Source of the DNA: Candidatus Heimdallarchaeum aukensis
GTDB taxonomy: Archaea > Asgardarchaeota > Heimdallarchaeia > Heimdallarchaeales > Heimdallarchaeaceae
Reading direction: 5' to 3'
NCBI GenBank assembly: GCA_021513695.1
Contig: CP084166.1
Location: forward strand, 1,536,001-1,600,000
Length of the DNA: 64,000 bases
The notes under the pieces are model-generated. The model did not search any database. It was not told the DNA's origin and saw nothing but the letters and a program-made list of their open reading frames with translations. The first letter of the stretch is position 1. The number at the start of each line of letters is the position of its first letter. The position numbers and the translations under genes are program-made. This document shows positions 1 through 19,128 of the stretch, in pieces.

Positions 1-327
1 TTTGGTTGAACGGTTCGTTGTTAAAACTCCAGGTAGAATTCCCGTCTCACAGAGAATTTGAAAACCGTTACATATTCCTATAACAAAATTCCCTTGCTCT
101 ACAAATTTAGGCAATTCTTGCATTATTGCTGTTTTTGCTGCAATAACTCCTGGTCTTAGGTAATCCCCAAAAGAAAATCCTCCTGCAATGATTAGAGCAT
201 TTAAATCTTTCAATTTATCTGCATCCTTTTCGTAAATCAGTACACCTTCGACACCAAATGATGAGAGAGCTCTTAAAACATCTTGTTCATTGTTTGTTCC
301 TGGAAATTTTGTTACCCCTATTTTCAT
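1..327 (-). CDS. purQ: Phosphoribosylformylglycinamidine synthase subunit PurQ (glutaminase), N-terminal part; gene continues past the window edge
   Basis: Reverse-complement translation from ATG at 327 gives MKIGVTKFPGTNNEQDV...GICNGFQILCETGILPG, including the class-I glutamine amidotransferase GxCNGxQ motif. Not in the ORF track because it is truncated at the window edge. Confidence 0.7.
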   Translation of the reverse strand, partial: MKIGVTKFPGTNNEQDVLRALSSFGVEGVLIYEKDADKLKDLNALIIAGGFSFGDYLRPGVIAAKTAIMQELPKFVEQGNFVIGICNGFQILCETGILPGVLTTNRSTK

Positions 328-339
328 TATCATCATCCT

Positions 340-1329
340 TTATTCAAAAGAGAAGTCTATTGAGTAAGTTTCAATTAGAGGATTTGCCAGAATTTCATTA
401 CTTATTGTTTCTGTGACATCCCAAAGTTTTGACCCAGGAGCAGATGTAAAACTAATAACAACGCTTTTTCCGATATTTACTTTTGATACCTGCTTGTAAC
501 CAAGACGTAATAAAGAGCGAATGGTTATATCTCCAGCAGGATCTAGAACTGATTCTTTCAAATCGATTGTAACTCTAACTTTAGTCTTTAACTCTATTTT
601 TGGAAGCTCTTTAATTTGTTCTAATCTAAGAGCAATGTCATTATAATGGTCTACAACGTTACCTAGATCTTTTCTATATCTATCTTTGTCTTTTATTTCC
701 CCAGAACTCATTTCCCATAGACGCATCGTATCAGCAGATATCTCATCAGCTAAAATGAGTTTGCCATCTGTTGTTCTTCCAAATTCTAATTTAAAATCAA
801 CTAAAGTTAAACCAATTTTCTTGAACACTTCTCTTAAAATATAGTTTACTGCTAATGTTACAGCTTTTATAATTATTTTTTCTTTTTCATTAATCCAACC
901 TAATCTTATTGCTACTTCTTCAGTAACCAAAGGGTCATGAAGTTCATCATTTTTATAAAAGAGTTCAACGATAGGTTTCTCAAAGGAAATACCTTTCTCT
1001 ACACCATATCTTCTACAGAAGCTTCCTGCTGTAATATTCCTACAAACTGATTCAACAGGAATAATTTCCACTTTTTTACAAATGAGTTCATTTGATGATT
1101 CTTGTTTCAAATAATGTGTTTCAACCCCATAATGGTGAAGAACTTCAAACAATATCCGTGATATTTTACAATTAGCTTCTCCCTTTCCTTTTAGTTCATC
1201 AATTTTGACACCATCAAATGCCGATATCGAATTTCTAAATACAATCTTAACTTTTTCATCATCAAGAATTATAACATCTTTTGCTTTTCCAGAATATAAT
1301 TGTTCCAACACAAACCACCATTGCACCAT
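340..1329 (-). CDS. purC: SAICAR synthetase (PurC) with a C-terminal PurS-like domain; apparent PurC-PurS fusion
   Basis: The N-terminal 235 aa or so align by eye to PurC (LYSGKAKDV, FRNSISAFDG, LVDFKLEFG, RLWE). The last 85 aa or so (KVRVTIDLKESVLDPAG...LANPLIETYSIDF) match the PurS family, including the ANP(V/L)IE motif. The gene lies directly upstream of purQ. Confidence 0.75.
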   Translation of the reverse strand: MVQWWFVLEQLYSGKAKDVIILDDEKVKIVFRNSISAFDGVKIDELKGKGEANCKISRILFEVLHHYGVETHYLKQESSNELICKKVEIIPVESVCRNITAGSFCRRYGVEKGISFEKPIVELFYKNDELHDPLVTEEVAIRLGWINEKEKIIIKAVTLAVNYILREVFKKIGLTLVDFKLEFGRTTDGKLILADEISADTMRLWEMSSGEIKDKDRYRKDLGNVVDHYNDIALRLEQIKELPKIELKTKVRVTIDLKESVLDPAGDITIRSLLRLGYKQVSKVNIGKSVVISFTSAPGSKLWDVTETISNEILANPLIETYSIDFSFE

Positions 1330-1549
1330 ATTGCAAATTTATTTGATGTTTAATTTGATACGAAAATTTTATTAGATTAATAAATGTTGCGGAATACAAC
1401 GAAAAAATAGCATAAAATGGTTAATAGCGAGAATAGAGCGTTAAAAAAACAGCCATCTAATGAGGAAGTGTTTTGCACCATTATGCAACACCCAATGTTG
1501 TTGCTTAAAAAAATTTAACAATGAGTATATTTTTATTGTTCTGAGTGCA

Positions 1550-2329
1550 ATGAGTTCATTAGATAGTTACTTTGATGCTAAAGAAAAGCTTATGGTTCTC
1601 AATCTACTAAGAATGGTTTTTAAAAAATTTACAACTCTTGAAGATCTTAAAACATATCTCGATAATAAAGGAGTGGAAATTTCAATAGCAAATTTATCTA
1701 GATATATTAATGGAAAAGCTCTTCCAAAATCAAAGTTAAAAGATAAATTATTAGAAGTGCTTGTTGGGAATAGAGAACTTGGTTTGGACATCGACTTACT
1801 TACACACAAGCATATTGAGATTTGGCCTAGCGAGTATGGGATAGCTGTCAACAATGGTCATTTGTTGAATGACTCAAAAGCTCTTAATGCGATATTGTTT
1901 ATGGCAATTTATAAACAGTTTATCCCAACTGATGTTGATAAAGTTATTACAGCAGAAGTTGATGGTATTGTAATTGCTAGTACTTTAGCTCATTTGCTAA
2001 ACATTGATTGTGTATATGCTAGAAAGAAAAAGCCTACAGGTTCATTTCGCTGTTTATCAGAGGATATTCAATCTGCAACAGCAAGTAGAATCGAAACTCT
2101 TTATTTTCCTGAGAAATATATAAGAAAAAATGAAAGGGTTATCATTATTGATGATATAATCCGTTCAGGTTCTACACAAAAAGCTTTAGTAAATCTTGTA
2201 AGAAAGGCAGGAGGAATCCCAGTTAAAGTAATTATTCTTATTGGTATTGGCTCTCATTGGGAGAAGATTACAAAATTAAGTAATATACCTTTTAAAGCCT
2301 TGACAGTTGTACCTCGGTCTGAAACCTAA
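1550..2329 (+). CDS. HTH plus phosphoribosyltransferase-domain protein, PurR/GfcR-like putative regulator; the ORF track starts at 1460, but the internal ATG at 1550 is the more likely start
   Basis: The C-terminal PRTase fold carries the PRPP-binding motif VIIIDDIIRSGST, and there is an N-terminal helical DNA-binding-like region. It is transcribed divergently from the purC-purS-purQ operon, as Bacillus PurR is from its pur targets. Confidence 0.55.
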   Translation: MSSLDSYFDAKEKLMVLNLLRMVFKKFTTLEDLKTYLDNKGVEISIANLSRYINGKALPKSKLKDKLLEVLVGNRELGLDIDLLTHKHIEIWPSEYGIAVNNGHLLNDSKALNAILFMAIYKQFIPTDVDKVITAEVDGIVIASTLAHLLNIDCVYARKKKPTGSFRCLSEDIQSATASRIETLYFPEKYIRKNERVIIIDDIIRSGSTQKALVNLVRKAGGIPVKVIILIGIGSHWEKITKLSNIPFKALTVVPRSET

Positions 2330-4310: not shown

Positions 4311-4583
4311 TTAACCAGTTCTTTTAATGATATGAAATCCGAACTCAGTTTTAACAATATCAGATAATTCGCCCTTCTTCAAGGAGAAGGCAGCTTTTTC
4401 AAATTCTTTAACCATTTGACCATGGGTGAAAAAACCTAGGTTTCCTCCTCTTTTCTTACTTGGGCATGTTGAGTATTTTCTAGCTAATTCCGCAAAATCA
4501 GCTCCATCTTGTAATTCTTTCAATATTCTTTCAGCCTCAGATCTCTTTTTTACTAAAATATGACTTGCCTTAACTTTAACCAT
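4311..4583 (-). CDS. Parvulin-type (PpiC) peptidyl-prolyl cis-trans isomerase
   Basis: A 90-aa single parvulin domain with the ASHILVK...GG(N/K)LG(F)F...GFHIIKR pattern. Confidence 0.7.
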
Positions 4584-4652
4584 TTTATCACCATTTTATT
4601 AAGTTACATATTATTTTAAAACTATTCGTATAAAAGCAATAACTTATTTCTG

Positions 4653-4937
4653 TTATTCTTCTCTTTTTATGATGTGATAGCCTATTTTTGTTTTAACAAC
4701 ACCAGATATTTCACCTTTGTTGAGTTTAAAGGCCACATCCTCAAATTCCTTAATCATTCTTCCTTTTGAAAATTCAGGAAGTTTTCCACCATTTTTTCTT
4801 GTAGTACAAAGAGAATGGGTTTTTGCAAGGTTATTAAAATCAGCCCCATGTTTTAATTTCTCTAAAATTTGCTCAGCCTCGGAATATTTTTTTACAAAGA
4901 TATGGGATACCTTTACTTTATCTGTCACTTTTACCAT
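4653..4937 (-). CDS. Parvulin-type PPIase, tandem paralog
   Basis: A 94-aa paralog of the adjacent gene (VSHIFVKK...GYHIIKR). Confidence 0.65.
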   Translation of the reverse strand: MVKVTDKVKVSHIFVKKYSEAEQILEKLKHGADFNNLAKTHSLCTTRKNGGKLPEFSKGRMIKEFEDVAFKLNKGEISGVVKTKIGYHIIKREE

Positions 4938-5060: not shown

Positions 5061-5753
5061 TTATTCAAGTATTATTCTTGCATCTATTGCTTTTAAGCCC
5101 TCTTCAGTAACCATTACGGGATTTAAGTCCATTTCTTTAATTTCAGGATGGTCTTCAACAAGCTTTGAGATATTTAGAAGTAGAGACTTTAAATCATCCA
5201 TTTTCAAAGCAGGCATTCCTCTAAAACCTTCTAACATCTTTCTTCCTTTTATTTCACGGTACATTTCTTCTACATCATTTTCAGAGATTGGAATTAACCT
5301 AAAAGAAACATCCTTGTAAACTTCTACGAAAATTCCTCCAATGCCAAAAGCAATCATCTTTCCAAATTGAGGGTCGGTAGTTTGGCCTATCAACACTTCA
5401 ACACCCGAGACCATCTCTTCTATTGAGAAACCCTCTATTTTCGCTCCAGGATGGTAAGATGTTACCGATTCCATCATTTCTTCATATGCCTTCTTCAATT
5501 CTGAATCTGATTTTATACCTACCTTTACTCCTCCAGCTTCTGTTTTGTGAATAATATCCTCTGAAATTACTTTAAGGACTACAGGATAGCCGATTTCGTT
5601 TGCTTTTACTATGCACTCATCTAAATCTTTTGCTACTGCAATTTTGTTTAGAGGAACTCCAGCTAGTTCCATAACCTTTCTTGATTCTTCATAGGTTAGG
5701 ACATTACGTCCTTGACCCTTTACTTCTTCAAATATTTTATTAATTTCATTCAT
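5061..5753 (-). CDS. Acetyl-CoA synthetase (ADP-forming) beta subunit, ATP-grasp domain
   Basis: ATP-grasp-like sequence of about 230 aa directly downstream of the CoA-binding alpha subunit, with a start/stop junction at 5753/5754. Confidence 0.7.
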   Translation of the reverse strand: MNEINKIFEEVKGQGRNVLTYEESRKVMELAGVPLNKIAVAKDLDECIVKANEIGYPVVLKVISEDIIHKTEAGGVKVGIKSDSELKKAYEEMMESVTSYHPGAKIEGFSIEEMVSGVEVLIGQTTDPQFGKMIAFGIGGIFVEVYKDVSFRLIPISENDVEEMYREIKGRKMLEGFRGMPALKMDDLKSLLLNISKLVEDHPEIKEMDLNPVMVTEEGLKAIDARIILE

Positions 5754-7187
5754 TTATTTACACCCCTCATATCTTCTTGTTAAACTATCGACATTTTCTC
5801 TTCTGAGGAATTTTCCTCTATCAACTAATGCTTTCATCGCAATAACTGCTCTCTCAGCAGAAGGCAAGGTTGGTATACCTTTGTAGTTCAACCATTTGAA
5901 AGCTTCTAAATGGTCCATTCCAACAAAAGCACAAACTATAGGTTTTTTAGTTGTTGTGCTAACTTGATAAATTGCATCAGCAACTTTATCAGGAACAGCT
6001 CTTGACCCTGGATTAAATAAGGGACAAACACCATCAACTTCTGGAGCATCAACCAAAATTTGCAATACTTTTCTAAACCTAACATGATCTGCGTCACCGA
6101 TAATATCAACAGGGTTTTGTTTACTCCAAGTTGGAGGACAGACTTCATTTATTTTGGCAACTGTTTCTTTGCTTAATGTTGCTAGCTTCAACCCCACGTC
6201 TGCTGCCTTATCTGCTGAAATGACTATTATTCCTCCAGCATTACTCAAGATTGCGATATTTTCTCCATCAGGTGGAAGTTGAGTGCTAAATGCTTGAGCA
6301 ACATCAAATAATTCAAACCATTCTTTTGCTCGATATACCCCAGCTTGTTTAAAAGCAGCCTCATAACTTGCATCCTGTGTACTAATGGAACCAGTGTGAC
6401 TTGAAGCAGCAGCTGCTCCGTATGAAGTCCGCCCAGATTTTAAAACTACAATAGGTTGTCTCCAAGTAATTTTTTTAGCTTCTTCAAAGAATTTTCGTCC
6501 ATCTGGCATGCTTTCTACATAGAGTCCGATACATTTCGTTTTATAATCGTCAGCAAAATACTCCAGCAAATCAGCATCATCTACATCTGCTTTGTTTCCA
6601 ATACTAATGAAGTGAGAGTAACCTATTCCTACTTTATTGCTGTGCAGTATTGCTGAAATACAGAGAGCTCCTGATTGACTAATGAAAGCGAGAGTGCCTT
6701 TTTGTGGGGCTTCATCAGCGAATGTACCATTGAATTGAATATGCGGATTATAAATACCCAGACAATTTGGTCCTACAATTCGCATATTATAACTTCTAGC
6801 TATCTTTACTATTTCTTCTTCTGCATCTTTTTTACCAGTTTCTCCAAAACCCGCTGTAATAATAACTGCTGCTTTTACTCCTTTTTTTCCACATTCATGA
6901 AGAACAGAGATAACAAATTGGGGAGGAACAACAATAATTGCTTGATCTACCTCATCAGGCACATCTAAAATGGACTTATATGCTTTAAATCCCAGTATCT
7001 CGTCTGCTTTAGGATGAACTGGAAAGATTTTACCTTGAAATCCCTTTTTTCTATCAGTTTCACCCACTAAATAATGAACTATATTATCCATAATCCTGTT
7101 TCCTATTTTATCAGGAGTGGGAGTTGCACCTATAATAGCTACTGATTTTGGTTCAAAAAGAGCTTTTATTCCAGGATCGGTATTCAA
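5754..7187 (-). CDS. Acetyl-CoA synthetase (ADP-forming) alpha subunit, CoA-binding and succinyl-CoA-synthetase-like flavodoxin domains
   Basis: VAIIGATP...KIG N-terminal CoA-binding motif, and a GPNCLG motif typical of the NDP-forming acyl-CoA synthetase family. Confidence 0.75.
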   Translation of the reverse strand: MNTDPGIKALFEPKSVAIIGATPTPDKIGNRIMDNIVHYLVGETDRKKGFQGKIFPVHPKADEILGFKAYKSILDVPDEVDQAIIVVPPQFVISVLHECGKKGVKAAVIITAGFGETGKKDAEEEIVKIARSYNMRIVGPNCLGIYNPHIQFNGTFADEAPQKGTLAFISQSGALCISAILHSNKVGIGYSHFISIGNKADVDDADLLEYFADDYKTKCIGLYVESMPDGRKFFEEAKKITWRQPIVVLKSGRTSYGAAAASSHTGSISTQDASYEAAFKQAGVYRAKEWFELFDVAQAFSTQLPPDGENIAILSNAGGIIVISADKAADVGLKLATLSKETVAKINEVCPPTWSKQNPVDIIGDADHVRFRKVLQILVDAPEVDGVCPLFNPGSRAVPDKVADAIYQVSTTTKKPIVCAFVGMDHLEAFKWLNYKGIPTLPSAERAVIAMKALVDRGKFLRRENVDSLTRRYEGCK

Positions 7188-7349: not shown

Positions 7350-8993
7350 ATGAAAAAAAATCCCTTTTGGTTTCCAAAAATTTTGATAATTGTAATTTTT
7401 ATCCTTAATTTTTTTATTCTGCAAAATTCAACCCAATTTTTACTTAATGTTTCTGCTATAGAAAATGAAACAAATTATTATGGAATAAAGAGCCAACAAC
7501 CAATATTTATTGAAAGTGATGAAGATTTTGAAAAATATAATTTTAGAGGAGATGGAACTAGTTCCAATCCCTATTTAATTAAAAATTTAGTAATTATCGG
7601 AAAAACAATTGCAATTTCAGTAAAAAATACAACCAAGCATTTTACCATTGTTGATTGTAGAATCAGATTTTGCGATATTGGTATTTTTATTTTTAATGCA
7701 TCAAAAGGAACCGCTACCATAATAAATAATTCTCTTTCATACATCCAAGATCAAAATGCGTTGGGTTCAGTAGGTCAAGCAATTTTTGTATCAGAATCAG
7801 AAGGAGTAAGAATTGAAGGTAATAAAGTCATTGATTCTGATATCGCAATTTTTCTTTCCCAATCCTCGTATTCACAAGTACTTAACAACACTATAAAAGA
7901 AAAATATGGAATAACAGTTATTTCTTCCTCAAAAACTGTAATTGAGAATAATTCACTTACAAACTGTGGATTAAACATATATGGAAAATCAGAAATTGAA
8001 GAATATAATTCCTATATTATAAGAAACAACCTTGTAAATGGAAAAAAACTAGGATATTTTGTAGATCTTAATGATGTAATTATTGAAGAGGATATTTATG
8101 GTCAAATACTCCTAATCAATTGTACAAACTTTCTAATAGAAAATCAAGTTCTGGCTGATACGACAACAGGAATAACCATGTATTTTTCTAAGAATATTGA
8201 AATTTCTAATTCTTATTCTCGTTCTAATATTTTTGAAGGTATTGCAGTTTACGGTTCGTCAAACATTTACATTCATAATTCAATATTTGAAGAAAATGGA
8301 TTTGGGTTTACAGGTTGCGGAATTAGACTTAGAGAAACAGAAAATAGTATAATAGAGGACAATGTTATGAGGTATAACAAAGGAGATGGTGGAATATTAG
8401 CTTCACTTACTAATAATATAATAATAAGAAATAACGTTTTATCTTTCAATAAAGGAGAGGGTATTGCTCTAAAAACATGCAACAACACAGAAATTCAAGA
8501 AAACATTTGTTTTGGAAATGGGATTGATGGTTTGTCTCTTCTAGCTACAAATAACTCATTAATTACAGAAAACTATTTTGTTGAAAATGCTGAAACTGGG
8601 ATTTTTCTTTTCGACTCGAGTTACAATTCAATAATAAACAATACTATTATGAACAATTATAATTATGGTATAATGCTAATGGATGCAATTGCAGACAATA
8701 AAGTAAGATGCAGGGAGAATATTGTCTATCTCAATTTTTTTATCAACAATAATGCTAATGGAACATCTCAAGCATTTGATAACGGATACAATAACAAGTG
8801 GTATAATGAAACTATGGAAATTGGAAATTACTGGTCAGACAATTCTAAGAGAAAATATGCAATAAGTGGAACAGCAAATTCATTTGACAAATTTCCAATA
8901 GATCAAAATTTGAAGAGAGTCTCATTTATCAATTTTGGATTTGTTTTAATAGTGGTTTGCGTTGCCACGATAATAAAAAAAGTAAAGAATTAG
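7350..8993 (+). CDS. Secreted or cell-surface protein with right-handed parallel beta-helix repeats, N-terminal signal peptide and C-terminal TM anchor
   Basis: Hydrophobic N-terminus; many repeated N-x-I/V-x-x-N segments (NNSLT, NNTI, NNLV, ENNV) typical of pectate-lyase or NosD-like beta-helices; C-terminal hydrophobic stretch followed by KKVKN. Confidence 0.55.
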   Translation: MKKNPFWFPKILIIVIFILNFFILQNSTQFLLNVSAIENETNYYGIKSQQPIFIESDEDFEKYNFRGDGTSSNPYLIKNLVIIGKTIAISVKNTTKHFTIVDCRIRFCDIGIFIFNASKGTATIINNSLSYIQDQNALGSVGQAIFVSESEGVRIEGNKVIDSDIAIFLSQSSYSQVLNNTIKEKYGITVISSSKTVIENNSLTNCGLNIYGKSEIEEYNSYIIRNNLVNGKKLGYFVDLNDVIIEEDIYGQILLINCTNFLIENQVLADTTTGITMYFSKNIEISNSYSRSNIFEGIAVYGSSNIYIHNSIFEENGFGFTGCGIRLRETENSIIEDNVMRYNKGDGGILASLTNNIIIRNNVLSFNKGEGIALKTCNNTEIQENICFGNGIDGLSLLATNNSLITENYFVENAETGIFLFDSSYNSIINNTIMNNYNYGIMLMDAIADNKVRCRENIVYLNFFINNNANGTSQAFDNGYNNKWYNETMEIGNYWSDNSKRKYAISGTANSFDKFPIDQNLKRVSFINFGFVLIVVCVATIIKKVKN

Positions 8994-10879
8994 AGGAGTT
9001 TCATTGAATATTCTTTCATTGGTTCGAATAGTTTTACTCCAGTTCTTTCTTCCACCAAAGAAATGATTTTATCATATAATTTCTCATAATCAAACTCTTT
9101 AATATCATTCTTTCCTGGTAGTACTATTCCTTCTTTTTCTGCAATCTCTAAAGCTTCTTCATATCCTGCAGCAGCATGACGAAGAATTGCACTTAGAGGA
9201 TCCCAAGTTAATACTCTGAATAGTTTTTCTTGAGCTAGTCTTGTTCCATCTGCGACTATTACTTGTCCTGCATGTAAACTATATCCTACTCCTACTCCTC
9301 CACCACCATGATAGCTTACCCATGTTGCTCCCGTAAGTGCGTTTCCTAGTAGATTTAAAACAGGATAATCTCCAATTGCATCACTTCCATCTTTCATTCC
9401 TTCTGTTTCTCTATTTGGAGAGGCAACAGATCCTCCATCTAAATGGTCTCGCCCTATTATCACTGGTGCTTTTAGTTTGCCTTCAGCTACAAGTTTGTTC
9501 ATTAGCATTCCAAAAGCAGCTCTACCTATAAAACCAGCCCAAAATACTCTAGCAGGTAATCCTTTCTCAAATGGAATATATTTAGAAGCGAGATTTATCC
9601 AGTTTACAAGCTGTGGATCATCATAGAACAGTTTTTTGGCATACTCATCTGTTACTCTTATATCTTCAGGATCATTACTTAAAGCGGCCCATCTAAAAGG
9701 CCCTTTACCCACACAGAATAGGGGGCGAACATATGCAACAACAAATCCTGGAAAATTGAAAGCTTCTTCTACTCCAAGTTCATAAGCTTGTTGTCTAATG
9801 TTATTTCCATAATCAAAGGTTTCAGCCCCTCTTTTGTGTAGTTCAATCATAAGTTTTACATGTCTCTTAACTGTTTCTTTTGATCTTCTCAAATATTCAT
9901 CGGGGTCAGTTTTTCTTAATTGATCTGCTTCTTCACAAGTCATATTTTGAGGATAATAACCATTCAACAAATCATGAGCTGATGTTTGATCTGTCAAGAG
10001 ATGAGGAGTAATATTATGGTCAACCAGATATTGGAGAAGGTCAACAGCATTACAACAGACACCTATAGATACAGCTTCATTACGTTCTGCGTATTCTCTT
10101 GCAATATTTACAGCTTCTTCTATATCATCTGTCTTTATATCAAGGTATGGAGCTCCTTGATCTCTTCCTTCATTATACATTCTGTCTACTAATTTTGGAT
10201 TAATCTCAGCAATAATTGAGACCCTATTGCACATCTTTGCCGCTAAAGGTTGAGCCCCAGACATTAATCCAAGACCAGAGGAAATAAATAATTGTTTTTC
10301 AAAATCAGAGAGTTTTTCATAAGCTTCTTTACTTTGAGCAGATTTAATTGCTGCTGCGATAGTCTCATAAGTTCCTTGAATTATTCCTTGTAACCCTATA
10401 AAGATGAAAGATCCTGCAGTCATTTGTCCATATACTGTAAGTCCTGCATCCACCATTTCTTGAAAATAAGGAGTCCAATGAGGTACAATAACACTATTTG
10501 TTATTACTACTCTTGGAGCCCAGCGCGTTGTTTGCATTTTACCATAAGAAACTCCAGATTGTAAGAATAGTGTTTCATTAGGTTCTAGAGTTTTCAACAA
10601 CTCGATTGTTTCAAAAAAGGATTTCCAATCCCTTGCTACTTTACCTGAACCTCCATAAATATAAAGAGTTTTCCAATCTCTTCCGTTGTGAAGATTAGAA
10701 AGCATAGCTCGAATAACTGCCTCTGTTTCCCAACCCGCTTTGGTATGAGGTTTAAGAGCTTCTTCTCCCTTGGGTAAGGGAGGTATCTCTTTAGGCATGT
10801 GATCCATTCTTAATTTTTGCTCTTCAGAGAGCTTTTCTTCTCCCGCAATTATTTTTTCTAAACGGTTTCTATAACCCAT
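8990..10879 (-). CDS. hutU: Urocanate hydratase (urocanase)
   Basis: A 629-aa protein with the length and general sequence character of urocanase. Other Hut enzymes are present elsewhere in the window. Confidence 0.7.
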   Translation of the reverse strand: MGYRNRLEKIIAGEEKLSEEQKLRMDHMPKEIPPLPKGEEALKPHTKAGWETEAVIRAMLSNLHNGRDWKTLYIYGGSGKVARDWKSFFETIELLKTLEPNETLFLQSGVSYGKMQTTRWAPRVVITNSVIVPHWTPYFQEMVDAGLTVYGQMTAGSFIFIGLQGIIQGTYETIAAAIKSAQSKEAYEKLSDFEKQLFISSGLGLMSGAQPLAAKMCNRVSIIAEINPKLVDRMYNEGRDQGAPYLDIKTDDIEEAVNIAREYAERNEAVSIGVCCNAVDLLQYLVDHNITPHLLTDQTSAHDLLNGYYPQNMTCEEADQLRKTDPDEYLRRSKETVKRHVKLMIELHKRGAETFDYGNNIRQQAYELGVEEAFNFPGFVVAYVRPLFCVGKGPFRWAALSNDPEDIRVTDEYAKKLFYDDPQLVNWINLASKYIPFEKGLPARVFWAGFIGRAAFGMLMNKLVAEGKLKAPVIIGRDHLDGGSVASPNRETEGMKDGSDAIGDYPVLNLLGNALTGATWVSYHGGGGVGVGYSLHAGQVIVADGTRLAQEKLFRVLTWDPLSAILRHAAAGYEEALEIAEKEGIVLPGKNDIKEFDYEKLYDKIISLVEERTGVKLFEPMKEYSMKLL

Positions 10880-11752: not shown

Positions 11753-11802
11753 TTTTCTAAATATAAAAGAGCGATTTTCTAAATATAAGAGAGTGATTTT
11801 CT
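11744..11802. repeat. Tandem direct repeat of about 22 nt, (A)GAG(A/C)GTGATTTTCTAAATATAA, 2.6 copies, at the end of the 10979-11752 gene and upstream of purP
   Basis: agagagtgattttctaaatataa / aagagcgattttctaaatataag / agagagtgattttct, read directly. Confidence 0.6.
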
Positions 11803-11882: not shown

Positions 11883-13037
11883 ATGAATTCAAAAAAGAAT
11901 GATCCACTTGAAGAAAAAGATATAGTTGTTAAACAGACTCTTACAAGTGGACCTCTATTTAGTGAATTACTTGAACGATATAATAAAGAGAACATAACTA
12001 TTGGTGTTTTAGGTTCTCATTCTGCTTTAGATGTTTTAGATGGAGCAAAAAGAGAAGGATTTAGAACCTTAGTTGTCTGTGAAAAAGGGAGAGAAGAGCC
12101 ATATATCCGATTTAAAAGGATAATAGATGAGATTATTACTCTGGACCATTTTTCTGATATTTTTGATATTCAAGATGATTTAATCAATAAGAACACAATA
12201 TTTGTTCCAAACAGGAGTTTTACTGTTTACTGTGGAGCAAATAGAATAGAAAGAGGATTTAGAGTTCCAATTTTTGGAAGTAGAAATCTATTAGGAGTAG
12301 AAGAAAGACTAGGACCACACAATTATTACCAGATTTTGGATCAAGCAACTATAAAATATCCACGAGTTTATAATTCTCCTGATGAGATTGATGGCCCTGT
12401 AATAGTAAAAATGCCTCATGCAAAACAAAGAGTTGAAAGAGGATTTTTCATTGCCAAAAATAAAGAGGATTTCGAAAAAGAGTTTGAAAAAAGAGTCATA
12501 GAGGGAATAATAAAAATAGACGATTTAAAAGAAGCTTCTATAGAAGAGTTTGTATCGGGTGTTCCATTCAACTTCAACTTTTTCTATTCACCACTCTTTG
12601 ATAGAGTAGAATTAATGGGTATTGATAGGAGATTTGTAACTGACTTAGATGGAATTGTTCGAATCCCAGCAGAACAACAACTTAAGTTAGGATTAAAAGA
12701 AGAGATGAAAGAGATAGGTAATTTTGCTGTTACTCTTCGAGAATCAATGCTTAGATATGTTTTTCCAATGGGTGATTATTTTGTTGAAGCAACAAAAAAA
12801 CTCTATCCTCCAGGAATAATAGGGCCCTTTGCACTACAAACAATGGTAACAAAGGATTATGAATTCAAAGTTTTTGATGTAAGTATGAGAATGGGGGGAG
12901 GAACAAATTCATTCATGGGAATTGGTAGTAATTATTCCTCAATATACTGGGGAGAACCAGTTTCAGCTGGAAGGAGAGTGGCAATGGAAATTAAATTTGC
13001 TGTAAAACAACAAAGGTTAGCTTACATAGTCACTTAA
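11883..13037 (+). CDS. purP: 5-formaminoimidazole-4-carboxamide ribonucleotide (FAICAR) synthetase PurP, ATP-grasp
   Basis: N-terminal LGSHSALDVLDGAKREGF (PurP signature region), ATP-grasp C-terminal half, and purine-biosynthesis neighbourhood (guaA downstream). Confidence 0.65.
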   Translation: MNSKKNDPLEEKDIVVKQTLTSGPLFSELLERYNKENITIGVLGSHSALDVLDGAKREGFRTLVVCEKGREEPYIRFKRIIDEIITLDHFSDIFDIQDDLINKNTIFVPNRSFTVYCGANRIERGFRVPIFGSRNLLGVEERLGPHNYYQILDQATIKYPRVYNSPDEIDGPVIVKMPHAKQRVERGFFIAKNKEDFEKEFEKRVIEGIIKIDDLKEASIEEFVSGVPFNFNFFYSPLFDRVELMGIDRRFVTDLDGIVRIPAEQQLKLGLKEEMKEIGNFAVTLRESMLRYVFPMGDYFVEATKKLYPPGIIGPFALQTMVTKDYEFKVFDVSMRMGGGTNSFMGIGSNYSSIYWGEPVSAGRRVAMEIKFAVKQQRLAYIVT

Positions 13038-13299
13038 TTGCAGAAAAATGCAATAATTGTTTTTTACCATTTTAAAAAAACAAGAAAGATTTATACAATC
13101 ACCTATTTTTCTCATATTTTTGTCATCGTCAGACTCAGAGAAAAGTTTGTATTTGCAAAATGTTGTAAAGATGTTTTTATGGAAAATCTTTGAAAAAGGC
13201 TATAAAAAAAGCGAAAATGATAAGAATGAGCAAAATTGAGTTAGAAAAATAACTAAAAAAATATATACCATTCATTTTCGGTTGGTTTGAGGACCAATC

Positions 13300-14295
13300 A
13301 TGATAATTAGTACTGTTGGAAGCCATTCTGCTCTCCAAATTCTTTATGGAGCGAAAAAAGAGTCATTTTCAACAAAGGTTTACTGTTTGAAAGGCAAAGA
13401 ACAACTCTATAAAAGATATCCAGTTGCAGACCAAATAATTACATTAGATAGTTATAGTGATCTTTTAGATAGGAAATATGAGGGAGAAGAAATTTTTGTT
13501 CCTCATGGTTCTATTATTGCCACTTTAGGAAAAAGAGCACTTGACATTCCTATCCCAATGATAGGAAACAGAGAAGGAATGTATTGGGAGATGGTAAGAG
13601 AAAAAAATTTAGAATTACTAAACAAAGCAAAAATTAGAACACCTTATACATATAAACCAGAAGAAATTGACCGATTATGTATTGTTAAGTTTCCAGGAGC
13701 AAAAGGAGGAGATGGTTACTTTTTATGTTCAAGTTATCAAGAGTTTGAAGGAAAAATTGATACGATAATCAAAGAAAAAAAAGTCTCAGAGGAAGAAGCT
13801 TCGAATGCTCAAATTCAGGAATACATTGTGGGCGTAACAATGTATCCTCACTATTTTTACTCTCCAATCTTCGATAGAGTGGAGCTATTAGGAATCGATC
13901 GTAGATATGAAACCAATGTTGATGCATTAGGAAGACTCTCACAGTCATTCTCTAAAATTTATCCAACTTATACAGTAGTTGGGAATCAACCGTTAATCGC
14001 AAGAGAATCACTTCTACACAAAATATTAGATTACGGAGATTTGCTCCGAGAAGTGTCAGTAGACTCTTTTCATCCAGGTTTAATTGGTCCCTACTGTATA
14101 GAGATGGCATTAACTGATAAGGAAATTGTCGCTTTTGAATTTACCAGTAGAATTGTCGCTGGAACAAGCTTATACATCTCAGGTTCCTTATACTCAAAGA
14201 TATTATTTGATGAAGAAATGAGCATGGGAAGAAGAATTGCAAGAGAAATAAAACTCGCTAAGGAACAAAATAGATTAGATGATATTATTTCTTAA
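13300..14295 (+). CDS. PurP-family paralog (FAICAR synthetase-like)
   Basis: Shares [39 protein letters not shown] and other blocks with the upstream PurP (YSPLFDRVELMGIDRRF). Confidence 0.6.
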
Positions 14296-14310
14296 AAAGA
14301 GCTGAAAAAA

Positions 14311-15819
14311 ATGGATAAAATTGGCATATTTGATTTTGGTGGTCAGTATTGTCACTTAATAGCTAGAAGAATAAGAGAATTAGGTGTTTATTCCGAAATA
14401 ATCTATAAACCTAGTGAAGAATATGTAGCTTATATTTTGTCTGGTGGTCCTGGAACACTAACGGATTCAGAATCTCCTAAATTACATGAAAATTTCTTTG
14501 AAAAAATCAATGTTCCTATCTTAGGAATATGTTATGGACACCAAATGATAGCTCAATCTTTTGGGGGAGAAGTAGGAAAGGGAAAAGAGCGTGAATATGG
14601 GAAAAAAATCGCAACCTTAAAAACAGATTCTCCATTATTTAAGGGTCTAGTAAATAATGAACAAGTTTGGATGAGTCATTTTGACGAAATTAAAAAATTA
14701 CCAGATGGTTTTGAAGTAATTGCTCAAACAGACATATGCAAAATTGCTGCTTTTCAAAACTTGGAAAGAAAAATATTTGGTATCCAATTCCATCCTGAAG
14801 TTAAACATACAATTAACGGATTAAAAATCCTTGACAATTTTCTTGATATTGTAGGTTGTAGAAGAACCTATAACTTAGAAGATTGGGTAAACAAAAAGCT
14901 TACAGAACTTAAGAGAGAAATAGGTGACAATAAAGTAATAATGGCTTGTTCTGGAGGAGTAGATAGCACAGTAGCTGCGGTATTGTTAGCAAAAGCTGGA
15001 ATCAATGCACATTTTATTTACGTAGATACAGGATTAATGAGATTAAATGAAACAGAAGAAGTAAAAGAAATTTTTTCAGAACTAAATATTCCTAATCTTC
15101 ATGTAATCAATGCAGAAGAACGTTTTTTAACAGCGTTATCAGGAATTTCTGATCCAGAGAAAAAGAGAAAAATAATTGGTCATTTATTCATCGAAATATT
15201 TGAAGAAGAAGCTAAAAAATTGGGAGAATTCGATTATTTAGGACAAGGGACTATTTATCCTGATAGAATTGAAAGTGCTCAGCCTAGTAAACATGCTACT
15301 GTAATAAAATCCCATCATAATGTTGGAGGTCTTCCAGAAAAAATGAATTTAAAATTATGCGAACCTTTAGCAGATTTATATAAAGATGAGGTAAGAAAAG
15401 TAGGTAAAATGTTAGGTTTGCCAGAAAAATTCACTAGAAGACATCCTTTTCCAGGTCCTGCCTTAGCAATACGTATACTAGGTAAAATCGACAAAGAGAA
15501 AATAGAGATTCTAAAAAAAGCAGATGCAATAGTTACAGACATCATTAGAAATCACGGTCTGTATGACCAATTGTGGCAAGTTTTTCCTGCCTTAATTCCT
15601 GTTAAAAGTGTAGGGGTCATGGGAGATGAGAGGACTTATGAATGGATGATTGCCATTCGAGCCGTTGAATCAATTGATGCGATGACTGCAGATTGGGCAA
15701 AATTACCATATGATATTCTCGAGGAGATTTCTAACCAGATCATTAACAAAATTAAAGGAGTAAATAGAGTTTTGTTTGACATTACAAGTAAACCTCCTGG
15801 AACGATTGAATATGAATAA
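14311..15819 (+). CDS. guaA: GMP synthase (glutamine-hydrolysing)
   Basis: N-terminal class-I GATase (GICYGHQ catalytic Cys; H/E further on), a SGGVDS PP-loop, and a C-terminal dimerisation domain. Confidence 0.85.
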   Translation: MDKIGIFDFGGQYCHLIARRIRELGVYSEIIYKPSEEYVAYILSGGPGTLTDSESPKLHENFFEKINVPILGICYGHQMIAQSFGGEVGKGKEREYGKKIATLKTDSPLFKGLVNNEQVWMSHFDEIKKLPDGFEVIAQTDICKIAAFQNLERKIFGIQFHPEVKHTINGLKILDNFLDIVGCRRTYNLEDWVNKKLTELKREIGDNKVIMACSGGVDSTVAAVLLAKAGINAHFIYVDTGLMRLNETEEVKEIFSELNIPNLHVINAEERFLTALSGISDPEKKRKIIGHLFIEIFEEEAKKLGEFDYLGQGTIYPDRIESAQPSKHATVIKSHHNVGGLPEKMNLKLCEPLADLYKDEVRKVGKMLGLPEKFTRRHPFPGPALAIRILGKIDKEKIEILKKADAIVTDIIRNHGLYDQLWQVFPALIPVKSVGVMGDERTYEWMIAIRAVESIDAMTADWAKLPYDILEEISNQIINKIKGVNRVLFDITSKPPGTIEYE

Positions 15820-15934
15820 TTATATTTTGAGAAATGAGGAGTCCGATATACAACCAATATTTCACATTTAGGAGTTGTTTTCACACACATGTTTTTTGCA
15901 AAATCTATTTAAGCAGTCAGTTCACTTTATTTTT

Positions 15935-17296: not shown

Positions 17297-17425
17297 GATA
17301 GAATTTTTCTTTTTTTAATTATCTTTTGTTAAAATAGTTTATTGACTTTTTTTCAAATTGTTGATATCCTTTATAGATTCTGAAAAACATTTATATCTAT
17401 AAAAAAAATCAATTAACTGATTACA

Positions 17426-18586: not shown

Positions 18587-18703
18587 ATATTTTTTCTTTT
18601 TTTTTAATTATCTTCTTTTTTTAAACCTTTGTGGTCTCTGAACAAAATTTATAAACTTAGTTTCACTTTTCTTAACAATTAACATAATTTTGAGGTAATA
18701 GAA

Positions 18704-19126: not shown

Positions 19127-19128
19127 AG

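What the first reader, a model, noticed from the sequence alone, without database searches (positions are those of the whole stretch)
1..2329. Apparent PurC-PurS fusion upstream of purQ, with a divergent PurR-like HTH-PRTase regulator
The 329-aa ORF has a full SAICAR synthetase followed in frame by a PurS-like domain (KVRVTIDLK...ANPLIETYSIDF), and then by purQ 12 nt downstream. PurS is normally free-standing or fused to PurQ/PurL, so a PurC-PurS fusion is unusual. The divergent gene has a PRPP-binding PRTase domain plus an HTH, the architecture of Bacillus PurR and archaeal GfcR. That suggests PRPP-responsive control of this pur operon.
Basis: partly seen in the sequence, partly recalled or inferred. 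Interest (0 to 1): 0.5.

Follow-up and report, generated by a model that had tools for sequence, protein, structure and literature searches.

The report
Asgard purine operon: fused gene, regulator
The left end of this Heimdall-group archaeal sequence holds a real, conserved fusion of two purine-synthesis proteins (PurC and PurS). Beside it lies a sensor-type DNA-binding protein that most likely controls purine genes through a newly recognised 16-base palindrome, TTGCA-N6-TGCAA.

Summary
ORF 340-1329(-) is one frame with a full SAICAR synthetase (PurC) and a full PurS domain. purQ follows 12 nt downstream. The fusion is not an assembly error: more than 70 database proteins from independent assemblies carry it, always ahead of purQ-purL. 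It is fixed in Heimdall-, Thor- and Sif-archaeia and appears sporadically in bacteria. It is rare overall and is already present, unremarked, in databases.

The divergent gene (true start 1550, 259 aa) has an XRE-like helix-turn-helix plus a PRPP-type phosphoribosyltransferase fold. The best solved sequence match of its family is the effector domain of Bacillus PurR. It is not a member of the PurR or GfcR families.

The new result is a 16-bp palindrome, TTGCA-N6-TGCAA. It occurs three times in 64 kb (0.09 expected): twice flanking the purCS core promoter and once between the two purP genes. The same paired sites lie upstream of purCS in all 12 Heimdallarchaeaceae relatives examined. Sites also lie in purP or pyrF intergenic regions next to the regulator gene.

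I read this as a predicted purine/nucleotide regulon in Asgard archaea. Neither binding by this protein nor PRPP as its ligand has been tested. I rate it a new variant of a known kind, of moderate interest.

The parts
1..327 (-). 5' part of purQ (FGAM synthetase glutaminase subunit), cut by the window edge
   Evidence: TIGR01737 and PRK03619 match model positions 1-108, E about 1e-39. Pfam GATase_5 also matches. The start is 12 nt after the purCS stop.
340..1329 (-). purC-purS fusion gene. This is the maximal ORF of 329 aa; the likely real start is GTG 1311 or TTG 1308 (about 322 aa).
   Evidence: AlphaFold model: pLDDT 93.3, pTM 0.91. PDB fold hits: PurC 2z02 at TM 0.92 and PurS 1twj at TM 0.88.
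631..1302 (-). SAICAR synthetase (PurC) domain, aa 10-233 of the ORF
   Evidence: PF01259 E 2.9e-74; TIGR00081 scores 222.7 bits, above its cut-off.
583..630 (-). Linker of about 16 aa that replaces the purC stop, the intergenic gap and the purS start seen in unfused genomes
   Evidence: Alignment of 28 fusion proteins. Unfused purC (240 aa) + purS (83 aa) + purQ occur in Meiothermus.
355..582 (-). PurS domain, aa 250-325 of the ORF
   Evidence: PF02700 matches 76 of 77 model positions, E 7.4e-17; TIGR00302 scores 54.2 against 39. It matches PurS chains including 3d54_B of the T. maritima PurLQS complex.
1315..1319 (-). GGTGG Shine-Dalgarno-like motif ahead of the probable GTG/TTG start
   Evidence: Read from the sequence. 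A GGTG motif recurs after the proximal site in five loci. This is an inference.
1321..1336 (.). Proximal operator TTGCACCATATTGCAA. It lies in the probable 5' leader of purCS and overlaps the spurious ATG at 1329.
   Evidence: A site at the same position occurs in 12 related loci.
1377..1391 (-). Probable BRE/TATA of the purCS promoter (minus strand CGCAACA-TTTATTAA). It ends 40 nt before the proximal operator.
   Evidence: Conserved block in the 5-locus alignment. The same 40-nt spacing occurs in L100 and L101. The assignment as a promoter is an inference.
1473..1488 (.). Distal operator TTGCACCATTATGCAA. It lies 152 bp from the proximal one and 62 nt upstream of the regulator's ATG.
   Evidence: The half-sites are invariant and the spacer varies between genomes.
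1550..2329 (+). Candidate regulator gene, 259 aa: XRE-like HTH + PRT-fold sensor domain
   Evidence: AlphaFold model: pLDDT 92.3, pTM 0.89. Fold and profile hits to APRT and B. subtilis PurR.
1550..1810 (+). N-terminal all-helical DNA-binding domain. The probable recognition helix is aa 46-53 (1685-1708), followed by the invariant S-R-Y-x-x-G-x-x-x-P motif.
   Evidence: DSSP helices 3-24, 30-39, 46-53, 61-71 and 81-87. Invariant S50, R51, Y52, G55 and P59. Aligned distant homologues P0172/P0173 hit Pfam HTH_3 at 23.5 bits against a cut-off of 23.
1895..2275 (+). Phosphoribosyltransferase-fold domain. The PRPP-binding loop VIIIDDIIRSGST is at 2138-2176.
   Evidence: PF00156. D201, D202, G207 and T209 are conserved. 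The loop S-x-SS-x-RI-x-T is shared with PurR, where APRT has EYG.
13038..13053 (.). Third exact operator, TTGCAGAAAAATGCAA. It starts one base after the purP-1 stop and lies 246 nt upstream of purP-2.
   Evidence: One-mismatch sites lie in the equivalent purP-1/purP-2 junction of L014 (2904), L102 (1741) and L104 (7945).
13153..13168 (.). One-mismatch site TTGCAAAATGTTGTAA, 115 bp from the third exact site and directly after a TATA-like AAAGTTTGTATT
   Evidence: On its own it is not above chance (3.5 one-mismatch sites are expected per window). It is counted only because of its position.
11883..15819 (+). purP-1 (11883-13037), purP-2 (13300-14295) and guaA (14311-15819): further purine genes that appear to share the operator
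   Evidence: Pfam DUF1246/DUF1297, which I take from my own knowledge to be the PurP family. guaA is assigned from its 49% match to the GMP-synthase genes of the loci.

Best explanation
Positions 1-2329 are the head of the de novo purine operon of a Heimdallarchaeaceae archaeon. The closest genome is Ca. Heimdallarchaeum endolithica.

The fusion. The first gene encodes a true bifunctional polypeptide: SAICAR synthetase (PurC) joined by a linker of about 16 residues to PurS. PurS is the small structural subunit that the three-part FGAM synthetase (small PurL + PurQ + PurS) needs. The fusion arose by loss of the stop between neighbouring purC and purS in the ancestral order purC-purS-purQ-purL. 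It keeps both activities and ties PurS dosage to PurC. It may also tether the two enzymes physically.

The regulator. The divergent 259-aa gene is most likely a transcription factor rather than an enzyme. A dimer of its XRE-like HTH domains would bind the 16-bp palindrome TTGCA-nnATnn-TGCAA. One copy lies about 95 bp upstream of the purCS BRE/TATA. A second lies about 40 bp downstream of it, in the leader just before the ribosome-binding site. Occupying both sites, possibly with looping or oligomerisation, would shut off purCS-purQ-purL and the genes that follow. Further sites serve purP-guaA and, in relatives, pyrF. The PRT-fold domain would sense PRPP or a related phosphoribosyl compound and release or alter DNA binding, as in Bacillus PurR.

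What is shown and what is inferred. Shown: the fusion, the domain architecture, and the conservation, position and purine-gene association of the palindrome. Inferred: that this protein binds the palindrome, that it represses, and that PRPP is the ligand.
For: Fusion:
- Both domains are full-length in one frame.
- More than 70 fusion proteins come from independent assemblies.
- In every one of the 14 loci examined the fusion gene is followed by purQ, and by small purL wherever the contig extends that far.
- Meiothermus has the unfused purC-purS-purQ arrangement.
- The model is confident (pLDDT 93, pTM 0.91), and its parts match solved PurC and PurS structures.

Operator:
- There are 3 exact sites in 64 kb against 0.09 expected, and 0 of 100 shuffles reach 3.
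- All three lie next to purine genes.
- There are 17 exact sites in 121 kb of non-redundant relatives. Every one lies in an intergenic region beside purCS, the regulator gene, purP or pyrF.
- The half-sites are invariant, the spacer varies, and the central AT is kept in 25 of 30 half-oriented copies.

Link to the regulator:
- The two purCS sites persist where the regulator gene is elsewhere (L012, L013, L101).
- Sites lie beside the regulator gene when it sits next to pyrF (L021) or inside a purP cluster (L103).
- The regulator and purCS share a contig in at least 12 assemblies, inferred from matching contig lengths.
- The motif and close homologues of the regulator cover the same clade. The motif is absent from the more distant Heimdall and Thor purCS loci.

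Sensor domain:
- The best PDB hit of the family profile is B. subtilis PurR (E 3e-16).
- The family shares PurR's S-x-SS-x-RI-x-T loop in place of the EYG of APRT.
- The PRPP loop is conserved.
Against: - There are no binding data, and no transcription start site has been mapped.
- When the regulator gene is separated from purCS, its own promoter lacks the site in L012 and L101. Autoregulation is therefore not general, and the association rests on synteny.
- The PRT domain keeps a canonical PRPP loop and resembles APRT in fold (TM about 0.8). Residual enzyme activity cannot be excluded.
- Distant members of the family (about 30% identity) are mostly not next to purine genes. Only 6 of about 74 loci are, and several lie beside tRNA genes.
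- Spacing between the paired sites ranges from 115 to 156 bp with no helical phasing, which is not what a rigid loop predicts.
- A site at roughly +15 to +30 is an unusual position for an archaeal repressor.
- The N-terminal domain of the window protein itself matches no Pfam HTH model above threshold.
Confidence: 0.6

Rival explanations
1. The PurC-PurS fusion is an artefact: a sequencing or assembly frameshift, or a lost stop codon, has joined two separate genes.
For: purC and purS are adjacent and separate in most organisms, for example Meiothermus. In Vagococcus silagei one record holds a 326-aa fusion while RefSeq also holds a separate 90-aa PurS. Individual bacterial cases may therefore be errors.
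Against: The same continuous frame with an alignable linker occurs in more than 70 proteins. These come from NCBI, JGI, ENA and Logan assemblies, span 38-92% identity, and include a closed genome. None of the 14 loci examined has a free-standing purS between purCS and purQ.
Confidence: 0.02
2. The divergent gene encodes a working purine salvage enzyme (adenine or xanthine phosphoribosyltransferase) with an accessory N-terminal domain. On this view a different, unidentified transcription factor binds the TTGCA-N6-TGCAA palindrome.
For: - Sources name it adenine or xanthine PRTase.
- The best NCBIfam model is PRK08558, 'adenine phosphoribosyltransferase'.
- The best fold matches are APRTs.
- The PRPP loop is intact.
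- A salvage enzyme would also be expected to cluster with purine genes.
- The gene's own promoter lacks the site in L012 and L101.
Against: - The N-terminal 87 residues form a confident five-helix bundle. It carries an invariant SRY-x-x-G-x-x-x-P motif that aligns with HTH_3 in distant homologues.
- The catalytic-loop EYG of APRT is replaced by the PurR-type loop.
- The PRK08558 score is below its cut-off (149 against 184).
- No other conserved regulator gene accompanies the sites across the loci.
Confidence: 0.2
3. The palindrome acts at the RNA level. It would form a leader hairpin next to the ribosome-binding site, a terminator after purP-1, or a binding site for an RNA-binding PRT-fold protein in the manner of PyrR.
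For: The proximal copy is probably transcribed and sits 12-23 nt before the start codon, just ahead of the Shine-Dalgarno-like motif. The purP copy directly follows a stop codon and precedes a T6 run. PyrR is a PRT-fold protein that binds RNA (my own knowledge).
Against: - The predicted hairpins are weak, at -2.8 to -4.8 kcal/mol.
- The stems are invariant in sequence with no compensatory changes, and the loop keeps a central AT. This is the pattern of a protein-contacted DNA palindrome.
- The distal copy lies upstream of the purCS TATA and persists where no divergent gene would transcribe it (L012, L013).
- The protein has an HTH domain.
Confidence: 0.05
4. The protein binds the palindrome but activates transcription, as reported for Lactococcus PurR, rather than repressing it. 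On this view the distal site recruits the transcription machinery when PRPP is high.
For: The distal site lies about 95 bp upstream of the TATA, which is compatible with an activator. The archaeal PRT-type regulator GfcR is an activator (PMC10838023). The GfcR paper lists L. lactis PurR among PRT-type purine regulators. That it activates is my own knowledge.
Against: The conserved proximal site lies downstream of the TATA in the leader, which is typical of repression. A pair of sites bracketing the core promoter suggests occlusion or looping.
Confidence: 0.15

Closest known systems
Bacillus subtilis PurR (PRT-type purine operon repressor; PDB 1O57, 1P4A, 7RMW)
   Same: - It has two domains, an N-terminal DNA-binding domain and a C-terminal PRT-fold effector domain of almost the same length. 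Profile positions 127-233 align with PurR 128-234 at E 3e-16.
- The loop S-x-SS-x-RI-x-T is shared.
- The gene lies next to the pur operon it would control.
- There are two operator elements per promoter.
- PurR is released by PRPP and autoregulated (PMC8789054).
   Different: - PurR's DNA-binding domain is a winged helix. This protein has an XRE-like five-helix HTH.
- The PurR operator is two 14-bp PurBoxes with a central CGAA, 16-17 bp apart and upstream of -35. Here there are two 16-bp TTGCA-N6-TGCAA palindromes 115-156 bp apart that bracket a TATA box.
- The score on TIGR01743 is 56 bits against a cut-off of 258.7.
- This is an archaeal promoter context.
- (p)ppGpp is not expected to be a ligand here (my own knowledge).
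Haloferax volcanii GfcR (PyrE-like HTH-PRT regulator of sugar catabolism)
   Same: It is an archaeal transcription factor built from a PRT-fold domain with an N-terminal HTH. It was formerly mis-named as an enzyme (PMC10838023).
   Different: - GfcR derives from orotate PRTase, lacks the residues that bind the PRPP pyrophosphate, senses sugar phosphates and activates sugar genes.
- The protein here is APRT/PurR-like, keeps the PRPP loop and is linked to purine and pyrimidine genes.
- NF045507 scores 21.7 bits against a cut-off of 300.
NCBIfam PRK08558 ('adenine phosphoribosyltransferase', 238-aa archaeal model)
   Same: The alignment is full-length, model positions 7-235, at E 1.2e-43. It includes the N-terminal region. 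Distant relatives of 235 aa carry HTH_3 + Pribosyltran.
   Different: The score of 149 bits is below the 184 cut-off, and the Heimdall proteins carry insertions of about 20 aa. No experimental characterisation of this family was found in the searched literature. Distant members are mostly not linked to purine genes.
Three-component FGAM synthetase PurL-PurQ-PurS (T. maritima PurLQS, PDB 3D54) and large PurL with an N-terminal PurS-like domain
   Same: The C-terminal 76 residues are a canonical PurS (TM 0.83-0.88 to solved PurS chains, including 3d54_B). They are encoded directly before purQ and, in relatives, small purL. PurS is already known as a fusion partner in large and 'md' PurL (PMC3261824).
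   Different: Here PurS is fused to the C-terminus of PurC, an enzyme of a different pathway step, not to PurL. No solved chain spans both domains. The 2011 survey of archaeal purine genes does not list this fusion among the passages retrieved.
PAICS and other purine-pathway fusions (PurC-PurE in animals; PurN-PurH1 in haloarchaea)
   Same: Neighbouring or consecutive purine enzymes are joined into one polypeptide. The PAICS SAICAR-synthetase domain matches this model (6yb8). The same Asgard operons also carry purB-purM or purE-purM fusions.
   Different: The partner is a non-catalytic subunit of another enzyme, not the adjacent catalytic step.
Escherichia coli PurR (LacI family)
   Same: It is a functional analogue: a dimer binding a 16-bp palindromic operator at purine genes (PMC3159470 abstract; operator length from my own knowledge).
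   Different: The protein family is unrelated and the ligands are hypoxanthine and guanine. The operator sequence is different.

Membership tests
SAICAR synthetase (PurC; PF01259 / TIGR00081) | Whole-protein score above the curated cut-off and full domain coverage | tested here: met
   PF01259 scores 250 bits against 20 and covers model positions 1-230 of 233. TIGR00081 scores 222.7 against 189.9. The fold matches 2z02 at TM 0.92 and 48% identity.
PurS (PF02700 / TIGR00302) | Full-length PurS domain above the cut-off | tested here: met
   PF02700 scores 61.7 bits against 22.2 and covers positions 1-76 of 77. TIGR00302 scores 54.2 against 39. NF004630 scores 62.5 against 75, so that model is not met. 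The fold matches 1twj, 2yx5 and 3d54_B at TM 0.83-0.88.
Three-component FGAM synthetase system | purQ and small purL encoded with purS | tested here: met
   purQ starts 12 nt downstream in the window. Small PurL (701-730 aa, with the FGAR-AT linker) follows purQ in 12 related loci. L100 ends inside that gene. purL itself lies outside the window.
Three-component FGAM synthetase system | PurS assembles as a dimer with PurL and PurQ | not testable with these tools
   This needs co-purification or a multimer prediction. Only monomer models were available.
Bacillus-type PurR (TIGR01743 purR_Bsub) | Whole-protein score at or above 258.7 bits | tested here: not met
   The score is 56 bits and covers only the PRT domain.
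Bacillus-type PurR | N-terminal winged-helix PurR DNA-binding domain | tested here: not met
   No PuR_N hit appeared at E up to 10 or in any of the 20 family members. The model shows five helices and no wing. Distant homologues hit HTH_3 instead.
Bacillus-type PurR | PRT-fold effector domain with a PRPP-binding loop | tested here: met
   The family profile's best PDB hit is PurR, E 3e-16. The loop VIIIDDIIRSGST is conserved.
Bacillus-type PurR | PurBox operator: inverted 14-bp boxes with a central CGAA/TTCG, 16-17 bp apart | tested here: not met
   No CGAA-N(18-38)-TTCG lies in 1300-1600. The window has only 2 matches, both elsewhere, fewer than the 5.9 expected by chance.
Bacillus-type PurR | DNA binding relieved by PRPP | not testable with these tools
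   This needs EMSA or footprinting with and without PRPP.
GfcR (NF045507) | Whole-protein score at or above 300 bits; PyrE-like PRT domain | tested here: not met
   The score is 21.7 bits. The PRT domain is APRT/PurR-like, not PyrE-like.
PRK08558 (archaeal 'adenine phosphoribosyltransferase' with an N-terminal extension) | Whole-protein score at or above 184 bits | tested here: not met
   The score is 149.4 bits, but the alignment covers positions 7-235 of 238. I treat the protein as a divergent relative, not a member.
XRE / Cro-C1 type HTH (PF01381 HTH_3) | Pfam HTH_3 above the 23-bit cut-off in the DNA-binding region | tested here: inconclusive
   The window protein has no hit. The aligned distant homologues P0172 and P0173 score 23.5 bits over the segment matching ANLSRYINGKALP. 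The N-terminal profile has no significant PDB sequence hit.
Adenine/xanthine phosphoribosyltransferase (enzyme) | Curated equivalog scores and the catalytic flexible-loop E-Y-G motif | tested here: not met
   TIGR01090 scores 49.6 against 185.9 and TIGR01744 scores 62.6 against 164.5. The loop aligns as DIQSATAS opposite DLEYGT of E. coli Apt. The same difference shows against R. marinus APRT.

The most novel reading that the evidence does not exclude
Heimdallarchaeaceae, among the closest archaeal relatives of eukaryotes, run a dedicated nucleotide-biosynthesis regulon. It would cover purCS-QL and downstream genes, purP-guaA and pyrF. Its regulator is a previously unrecognised type: an XRE-like HTH fused to a PurR-like PRPP-sensing PRT domain, currently annotated as an adenine or xanthine PRTase. 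The regulator would bind paired TTGCA-N6-TGCAA operators that bracket the core promoter. This would be the first purine-specific regulator and operator defined for any Asgard archaeon. It would also be a second, independent recruitment of a PRT-fold sensor for purine control besides Firmicutes PurR.
Probability: 0.55. Interest if true: 0.6.

Novelty: new variant of a known kind. Interest (0 to 1): 0.5.

Why it matters
Transcription regulation in Asgard archaea is almost entirely unexplored, and few archaeal metabolic regulons have a defined factor, operator and ligand. This analysis provides three testable elements. The first is an exact operator sequence with conserved geometry. The second is a candidate regulator that can be expressed and assayed in vitro without culturing the organism. 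The third is a plausible ligand.

It also corrects database annotation in two ways. A family named 'adenine/xanthine phosphoribosyltransferase' is probably a transcription factor. Gene callers also over-extend purCS from an ATG that lies inside the operator.

The PurC-PurS fusion, together with the purB-purM and purE-purM fusions nearby, shows a clade-wide tendency to weld purine enzymes together. That is relevant to how multi-enzyme purine assemblies arise, but taken alone it is an ordinary fusion of adjacent genes.

Tried and rejected
- **Frameshift or assembly artefact for the fusion.** Rejected by conservation across assemblies.
- **Fusion in Meiothermus.** tblastn appeared to span both domains in L006 and L007. 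ORF listing of L006 shows separate purC and purS, so the join was an alignment artefact there; L007 was not inspected.
- **Bacillus PurBox.** None is present. The conserved TTCCGCAAC block that looked PurBox-like from memory is better explained as BRE/TATA.
- **Other inverted repeats in 1300-1600.** For example, TGCAACA-N8-TGTTGC at 1481-1508 is not conserved in Ca. H. endolithica.
- **RNA-hairpin reading of the palindrome.** The hairpins are weak and show no covariation.
- **Spacer variants of the motif (N3-N10).** Only N6 is enriched. The N8 hits in distant loci are scattered and mostly one repeated sequence.
- **A shared motif upstream of distant family members (about 30% identity).** None was found. 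Only L091 and L095 share an unrelated palindrome at their start codons.
- **Sequence search of the N-terminal domain against PDB.** Nothing significant was found.
- **Rfam and tRNA scans of the window.** Nothing relevant appeared in 1-2329.
- **Literature searches.** Searches for a described PurC-PurS fusion, an archaeal PRT-type purine regulator, or PRK08558 found nothing.
- **The afdb50 fold library.** It was unavailable.
- **The sigma-70 promoter scanner.** I did not use it because the organism is archaeal.

Full report
**1. What is in the sequence**

The region holds three genes.
- On the minus strand, a 329-aa ORF runs 340-1329. After a 12-nt gap it is followed by the first 109 codons of a gene that runs off the window edge (1-327).
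- On the plus strand there is a divergent ORF whose mechanical limits are 1460-2329.

Pfam and NCBIfam place a complete SAICAR synthetase in residues 10-233 of the 329-aa ORF (PF01259 E 2.9e-74; TIGR00081 222.7 bits against a cut-off of 189.9). A complete PurS lies in residues 250-325 (PF02700, model positions 1-76 of 77, E 7.4e-17; TIGR00302 54.2 against 39). The truncated downstream gene is purQ (TIGR01737 E 3.9e-39).

**2. Is the fusion real?**

A search of 5.8 billion proteins returned more than 70 proteins of 318-371 aa that carry both Pfam domains, at 38-92% identity. Sources name them as Heimdallarchaeota, Thorarchaeota, Sifarchaeia and the cultured bacterium Acetomicrobium hydrogeniformans.

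The closest genome is the closed chromosome of Ca. Heimdallarchaeum endolithica PR6, at 92% amino-acid identity.

In every one of the 14 loci I fetched, the fusion gene is followed directly by purQ, and by a small purL wherever the contig extends that far. These loci include Heimdall, Thor and Acetomicrobium examples.

Twenty-eight fusion proteins align through a linker of about 16 residues with no frame disturbance. Meiothermus, whose PurC is among the closest unfused homologues, has separate purC (240 aa), purS (83 aa) and purQ in the same order. The fusion is therefore the loss of one stop codon between neighbours.

An AlphaFold model built on the alignment is confident (pLDDT 93.3, pTM 0.91). 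Its two parts superpose on solved PurC (2z02, TM 0.92) and PurS (1twj at 0.88; 3d54_B of the T. maritima PurLQS complex). No solved chain spans both.

In an exhaustive search of representatives at 50% identity, about 16-19 of the best 150 clusters are full-length fusions, against 2,066 PurC-like clusters at E<1e-10. The fusion is rare but recurrent. Named examples include a Vagococcus silagei protein that UniRef already calls a 'Multifunctional fusion protein', and a cyanobacterial MAG. RefSeq also holds a separate 90-aa PurS for Vagococcus silagei, so that particular case may be an error.

I found no paper that discusses the fusion. The 2011 survey of archaeal purine genes predates the Asgard genomes, and none of the passages retrieved from it mention this fusion.

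**3. Start codons**

The ATG at 1329 lies inside a conserved palindrome. In Ca. H. endolithica a 1-nt indel puts the corresponding region out of frame. In L014 the called start is a TTG 13 nt after the palindrome. Homologues begin M-x-x-YSGKAKD.

The probable start is GTG 1311 or TTG 1308, preceded by GGTGG (1319-1315). This gives about 322 aa. Gene callers make the same over-extension in L013.

For the divergent gene, all 50 close homologues begin at the position of ATG 1550 with MSS..SY.DA.EKLM. The stretch 1460-1549 is promoter, not coding sequence.

**4. The divergent protein**

Pfam finds only the Pribosyltran domain. The best NCBIfam model is PRK08558, 'adenine phosphoribosyltransferase'. 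It aligns end to end (positions 7-235 of 238) but scores below its cut-off (149 against 184). The PurR (TIGR01743, 56 against 258.7) and GfcR (NF045507, 21.7 against 300) models are far below their cut-offs.

The AlphaFold model (pLDDT 92.3, pTM 0.89) shows an N-terminal bundle of five helices (aa 3-87) followed by a PRT fold.
- The segment I46-I53 plus the invariant S50-R51-Y52-x-x-G55-x-x-x-P59 has the look of an XRE/Cro recognition helix and the turn that follows it.
- The two most distant homologues in the alignment hit Pfam HTH_3 above threshold over exactly this segment.
- The window protein itself does not hit HTH_3, and a profile of the N-terminal domain finds nothing significant in PDB. 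I therefore rate the HTH subclass as likely but not proven.

By fold, the PRT domain is closest to adenine PRTases (TM about 0.8). Full-length B. subtilis PurR chains also match, at TM about 0.5 because the domains are oriented differently.

By family-profile sequence search, the best solved hit is B. subtilis PurR (E 3e-16). Positions 127-233 align with PurR 128-234. The loop S-x-SS-x-RI-x-T is shared with PurR, where APRTs have the catalytic ..EYG... The PRPP loop VIIIDDIIRSGST is conserved across the family.

The architecture is therefore PurR-like in logic and in its sensor domain, but it has a different DNA-binding module.

**5. A conserved operator**

Repeat analysis of 1300-1600 showed that TTGCACCATATTGCAA (1321-1336) and TTGCACCATTATGCAA (1473-1488) are each imperfect palindromes of the form TTGCA-N6-TGCAA.

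The pattern occurs three times in the 64-kb window. The expected number is 0.09, and no shuffle out of 100 reached three. The third copy (13038-13053) starts one base after the stop of the first of two purP genes. It lies 246 nt before the second purP, which is followed by guaA.

In related Heimdallarchaeaceae loci the picture repeats.
- Two sites, 123-156 bp apart, lie immediately upstream of purCS in L001, L012, L013, L014, L020, L022, L100, L101, L102 and L104. In some of these loci one or both sites carry a single mismatch.
- The half-sites never vary among the exact sites, while the six central bases differ between genomes except for a preferred central AT (25 of 30).
- A multiple alignment shows a BRE/TATA-like block (consensus CCGnAAAG-TTTATTAA) between the sites. 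It ends 40 nt before the proximal site in the three loci measured (window, L100, L101).
- The proximal site ends 12-23 nt before the start codon, with a GGTG motif in between.

In 121 kb of non-redundant relatives there are 17 exact sites. All lie in intergenic regions next to purCS, the regulator gene, purP or pyrF. The more distant Heimdall (L016, L017), Thor (L018) and Acetomicrobium (L019) loci have no exact site. The three archaeal ones also have no one-mismatch site upstream of purCS.

**6. Linking the operator to the protein**

The evidence is comparative.
- (a) The regulator gene is divergent from purCS in the window and in L001, L014, L020, L022, L100, L102 and L104.
- (b) Where the regulator gene lies elsewhere (L012: 4 kb away; L013: not within 5 kb; L101: two genes upstream), both purCS sites remain.
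- (c) Where the regulator sits away from purCS, the motif can still lie beside it. In L021 it is divergent from a pyrF-like gene, and pyrC, pyrK and pyrD lie beyond it, assigned by eye. Two exact sites lie in that intergenic region. In L103 it is the second gene of a purP-regulator pair that is divergent from purP-guaA. The only exact site in 12.7 kb lies in that intergenic region.
- (d) A site recurs at the purP-1/purP-2 junction in the window, L014, L102 and L104.
- (e) No other regulator-like gene is conserved next to the sites.

Two points weaken the link. The regulator's own promoter carries no site in L012 and L101. Distant family members (about 30% identity, from other archaea) are next to purine genes in only 6 of about 74 loci: L045 and L065 (guaA), L071 (purB), L091 (weak PurF match), L095 (purF-purD) and L099 (purP-purP). 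Several lie beside tRNA genes instead.

**7. Mechanism proposed**

A dimer would bind each 16-bp palindrome. The half-site centres are 11 bp apart, so both fall on one face of the helix. One site lies about 95 bp upstream of the TATA box and one about 40 bp downstream of it.

If transcription starts the usual distance of about 25 nt after the TATA box (my own knowledge of archaeal promoters), the proximal site lies at roughly +15 to +30. Bound protein there would hinder polymerase recruitment or escape. The upstream site could stabilise it by looping or oligomerisation. B. subtilis PurR likewise uses two boxes and spreads along the DNA (PMC8789054).

The range of spacings (115-156 bp) argues against a rigid, phased loop.

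The ligand is inferred to be PRPP or a related phosphoribosyl compound, from the conserved PRPP loop and the homology to PurR. The direction of control (repression or activation) and the ligand are both untested.

An RNA-level role for the palindrome is unlikely for three reasons. The hairpins are weak (about -3 kcal/mol). The stems show no covariation. The distal site is kept upstream of the TATA box even where nothing would transcribe it (L012, L013).

**8. What the fusion does**

Both domains are intact, and the small PurL in relatives requires PurS (PMC3261824). The simplest reading is a bifunctional protein. Fusion guarantees that PurS is made with PurC.

PurS acts as a dimer in the PurLQS complex, and bacterial PurC is commonly dimeric (both from my own knowledge). 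A PurCS dimer could therefore deliver the PurS pair and dock SAICAR synthetase onto FGAM synthetase. The high pTM (0.91) suggests a defined orientation between the domains, but this is not evidence of a complex.

The same operons carry purB-purM (L001, L012, L013) or purE-purM (L018) fusions. Fusing purine enzymes is therefore a habit of this lineage.

**9. Comparison and novelty**

Taken alone, the fusion is a further, clade-wide example of a familiar phenomenon. It is already visible in databases, so it is of low novelty.

The regulator works like Bacillus PurR, but it is not a member of that family or of the GfcR family. Its DNA-binding domain, its operator and its promoter context all differ.

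I found no description of a PRT-type purine regulator, or of this operator, in archaea. The only archaeal HTH-PRT regulator described in the papers I found, GfcR, controls sugar catabolism.

**10. Verdict**

The finding is a new variant of a known kind. Interest is moderate (0.5). The cis-element is strongly supported, the identity of the binding protein is probable, and the ligand is speculative.

Noticed in passing
L001:10252-12582; L012:9249-end; L013:9265-end; L018:9834-11270: There are further purine-enzyme fusions in the same operons. A purB-purM fusion (776-795 aa: Lyase_1 + ADSL_C + AIRS + AIRS_C) occurs in Heimdallarchaeaceae closest to the window. A purE-purM fusion (478 aa) occurs in a Thorarchaeia locus. 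Other Heimdall loci (L014, L016, L017, L102, L104) have a separate purM directly after purE.
   Followed up: partly
window 11740-11802: A tandem repeat of a 22-nt unit (TATAAGAGAGTGATTTTCTAAA), 2.9 copies at 90% match. It spans the stop of the unannotated 257-aa ORF (10979-11752) and the region upstream of purP-1. No TTGCA-N6-TGCAA site lies in this intergenic region, so purP-1 may be controlled differently.
   Followed up: partly
window 1329 and L013:5001: An ATG inside the proximal operator is in frame with purCS, and gene callers use it. This adds 6-7 spurious N-terminal residues. The ORF from 1460 similarly adds a cysteine-rich 30-residue false N-terminus to the regulator.
   Followed up: yes
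window 15875-22066; L103:1-1837: Directly after purP-purP-guaA come a pyridine-nucleotide-disulphide oxidoreductase and the glycine-cleavage genes gcvT, gcvH, gcvP1 and gcvP2. These supply one-carbon units. The guaA / oxidoreductase / gcvT adjacency is conserved in L103. No operator site was seen there.
   Followed up: partly
window 22207-25182: A 991-aa RtcB tRNA-splicing ligase interrupted by an intein. Pfam Intein_splicing spans residues 108-605, and the RtcB domain resumes at about residue 596.
   Followed up: no
window 51239-51313 (+): A borderline Rfam hit to the C/D-box snoRNA family SNORD36 (31.9 bits against a gathering score of 30, E 0.38). It lies inside a 205-aa ORF (50835-51452). 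It may be an archaeal C/D-box sRNA or may be chance.
   Followed up: no
L021:4852-9794; L104:11259-12780: In some relatives the regulator gene sits among pyrimidine genes. In L021, pyrF is divergent and pyrC, pyrK and pyrD lie beyond the regulator on the opposite strand, assigned by eye from the translations. In L104, OMP decarboxylase and dihydroorotase are assigned by Pfam. This hints that the regulon covers pyrimidine as well as purine synthesis.
   Followed up: partly
window 4311-4937 (-); L103:6818-7548: Two tandem small parvulin-type peptidyl-prolyl isomerase genes (90 and 94 aa). They lie near an ADP-forming acyl-CoA synthetase pair (5061-7187) and a urocanase gene (8990-10879). The same gene set is syntenic with the regulator in L103.
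   Followed up: no
L091:3090-3110; L095:444-464: Two distant family members (26-29% identity) lie next to purF or purF-purD. They share a different palindrome, TCATGTAATTTTTACACATGA, that overlaps their start codons. It could be the operator of another branch of the family.
   Followed up: no
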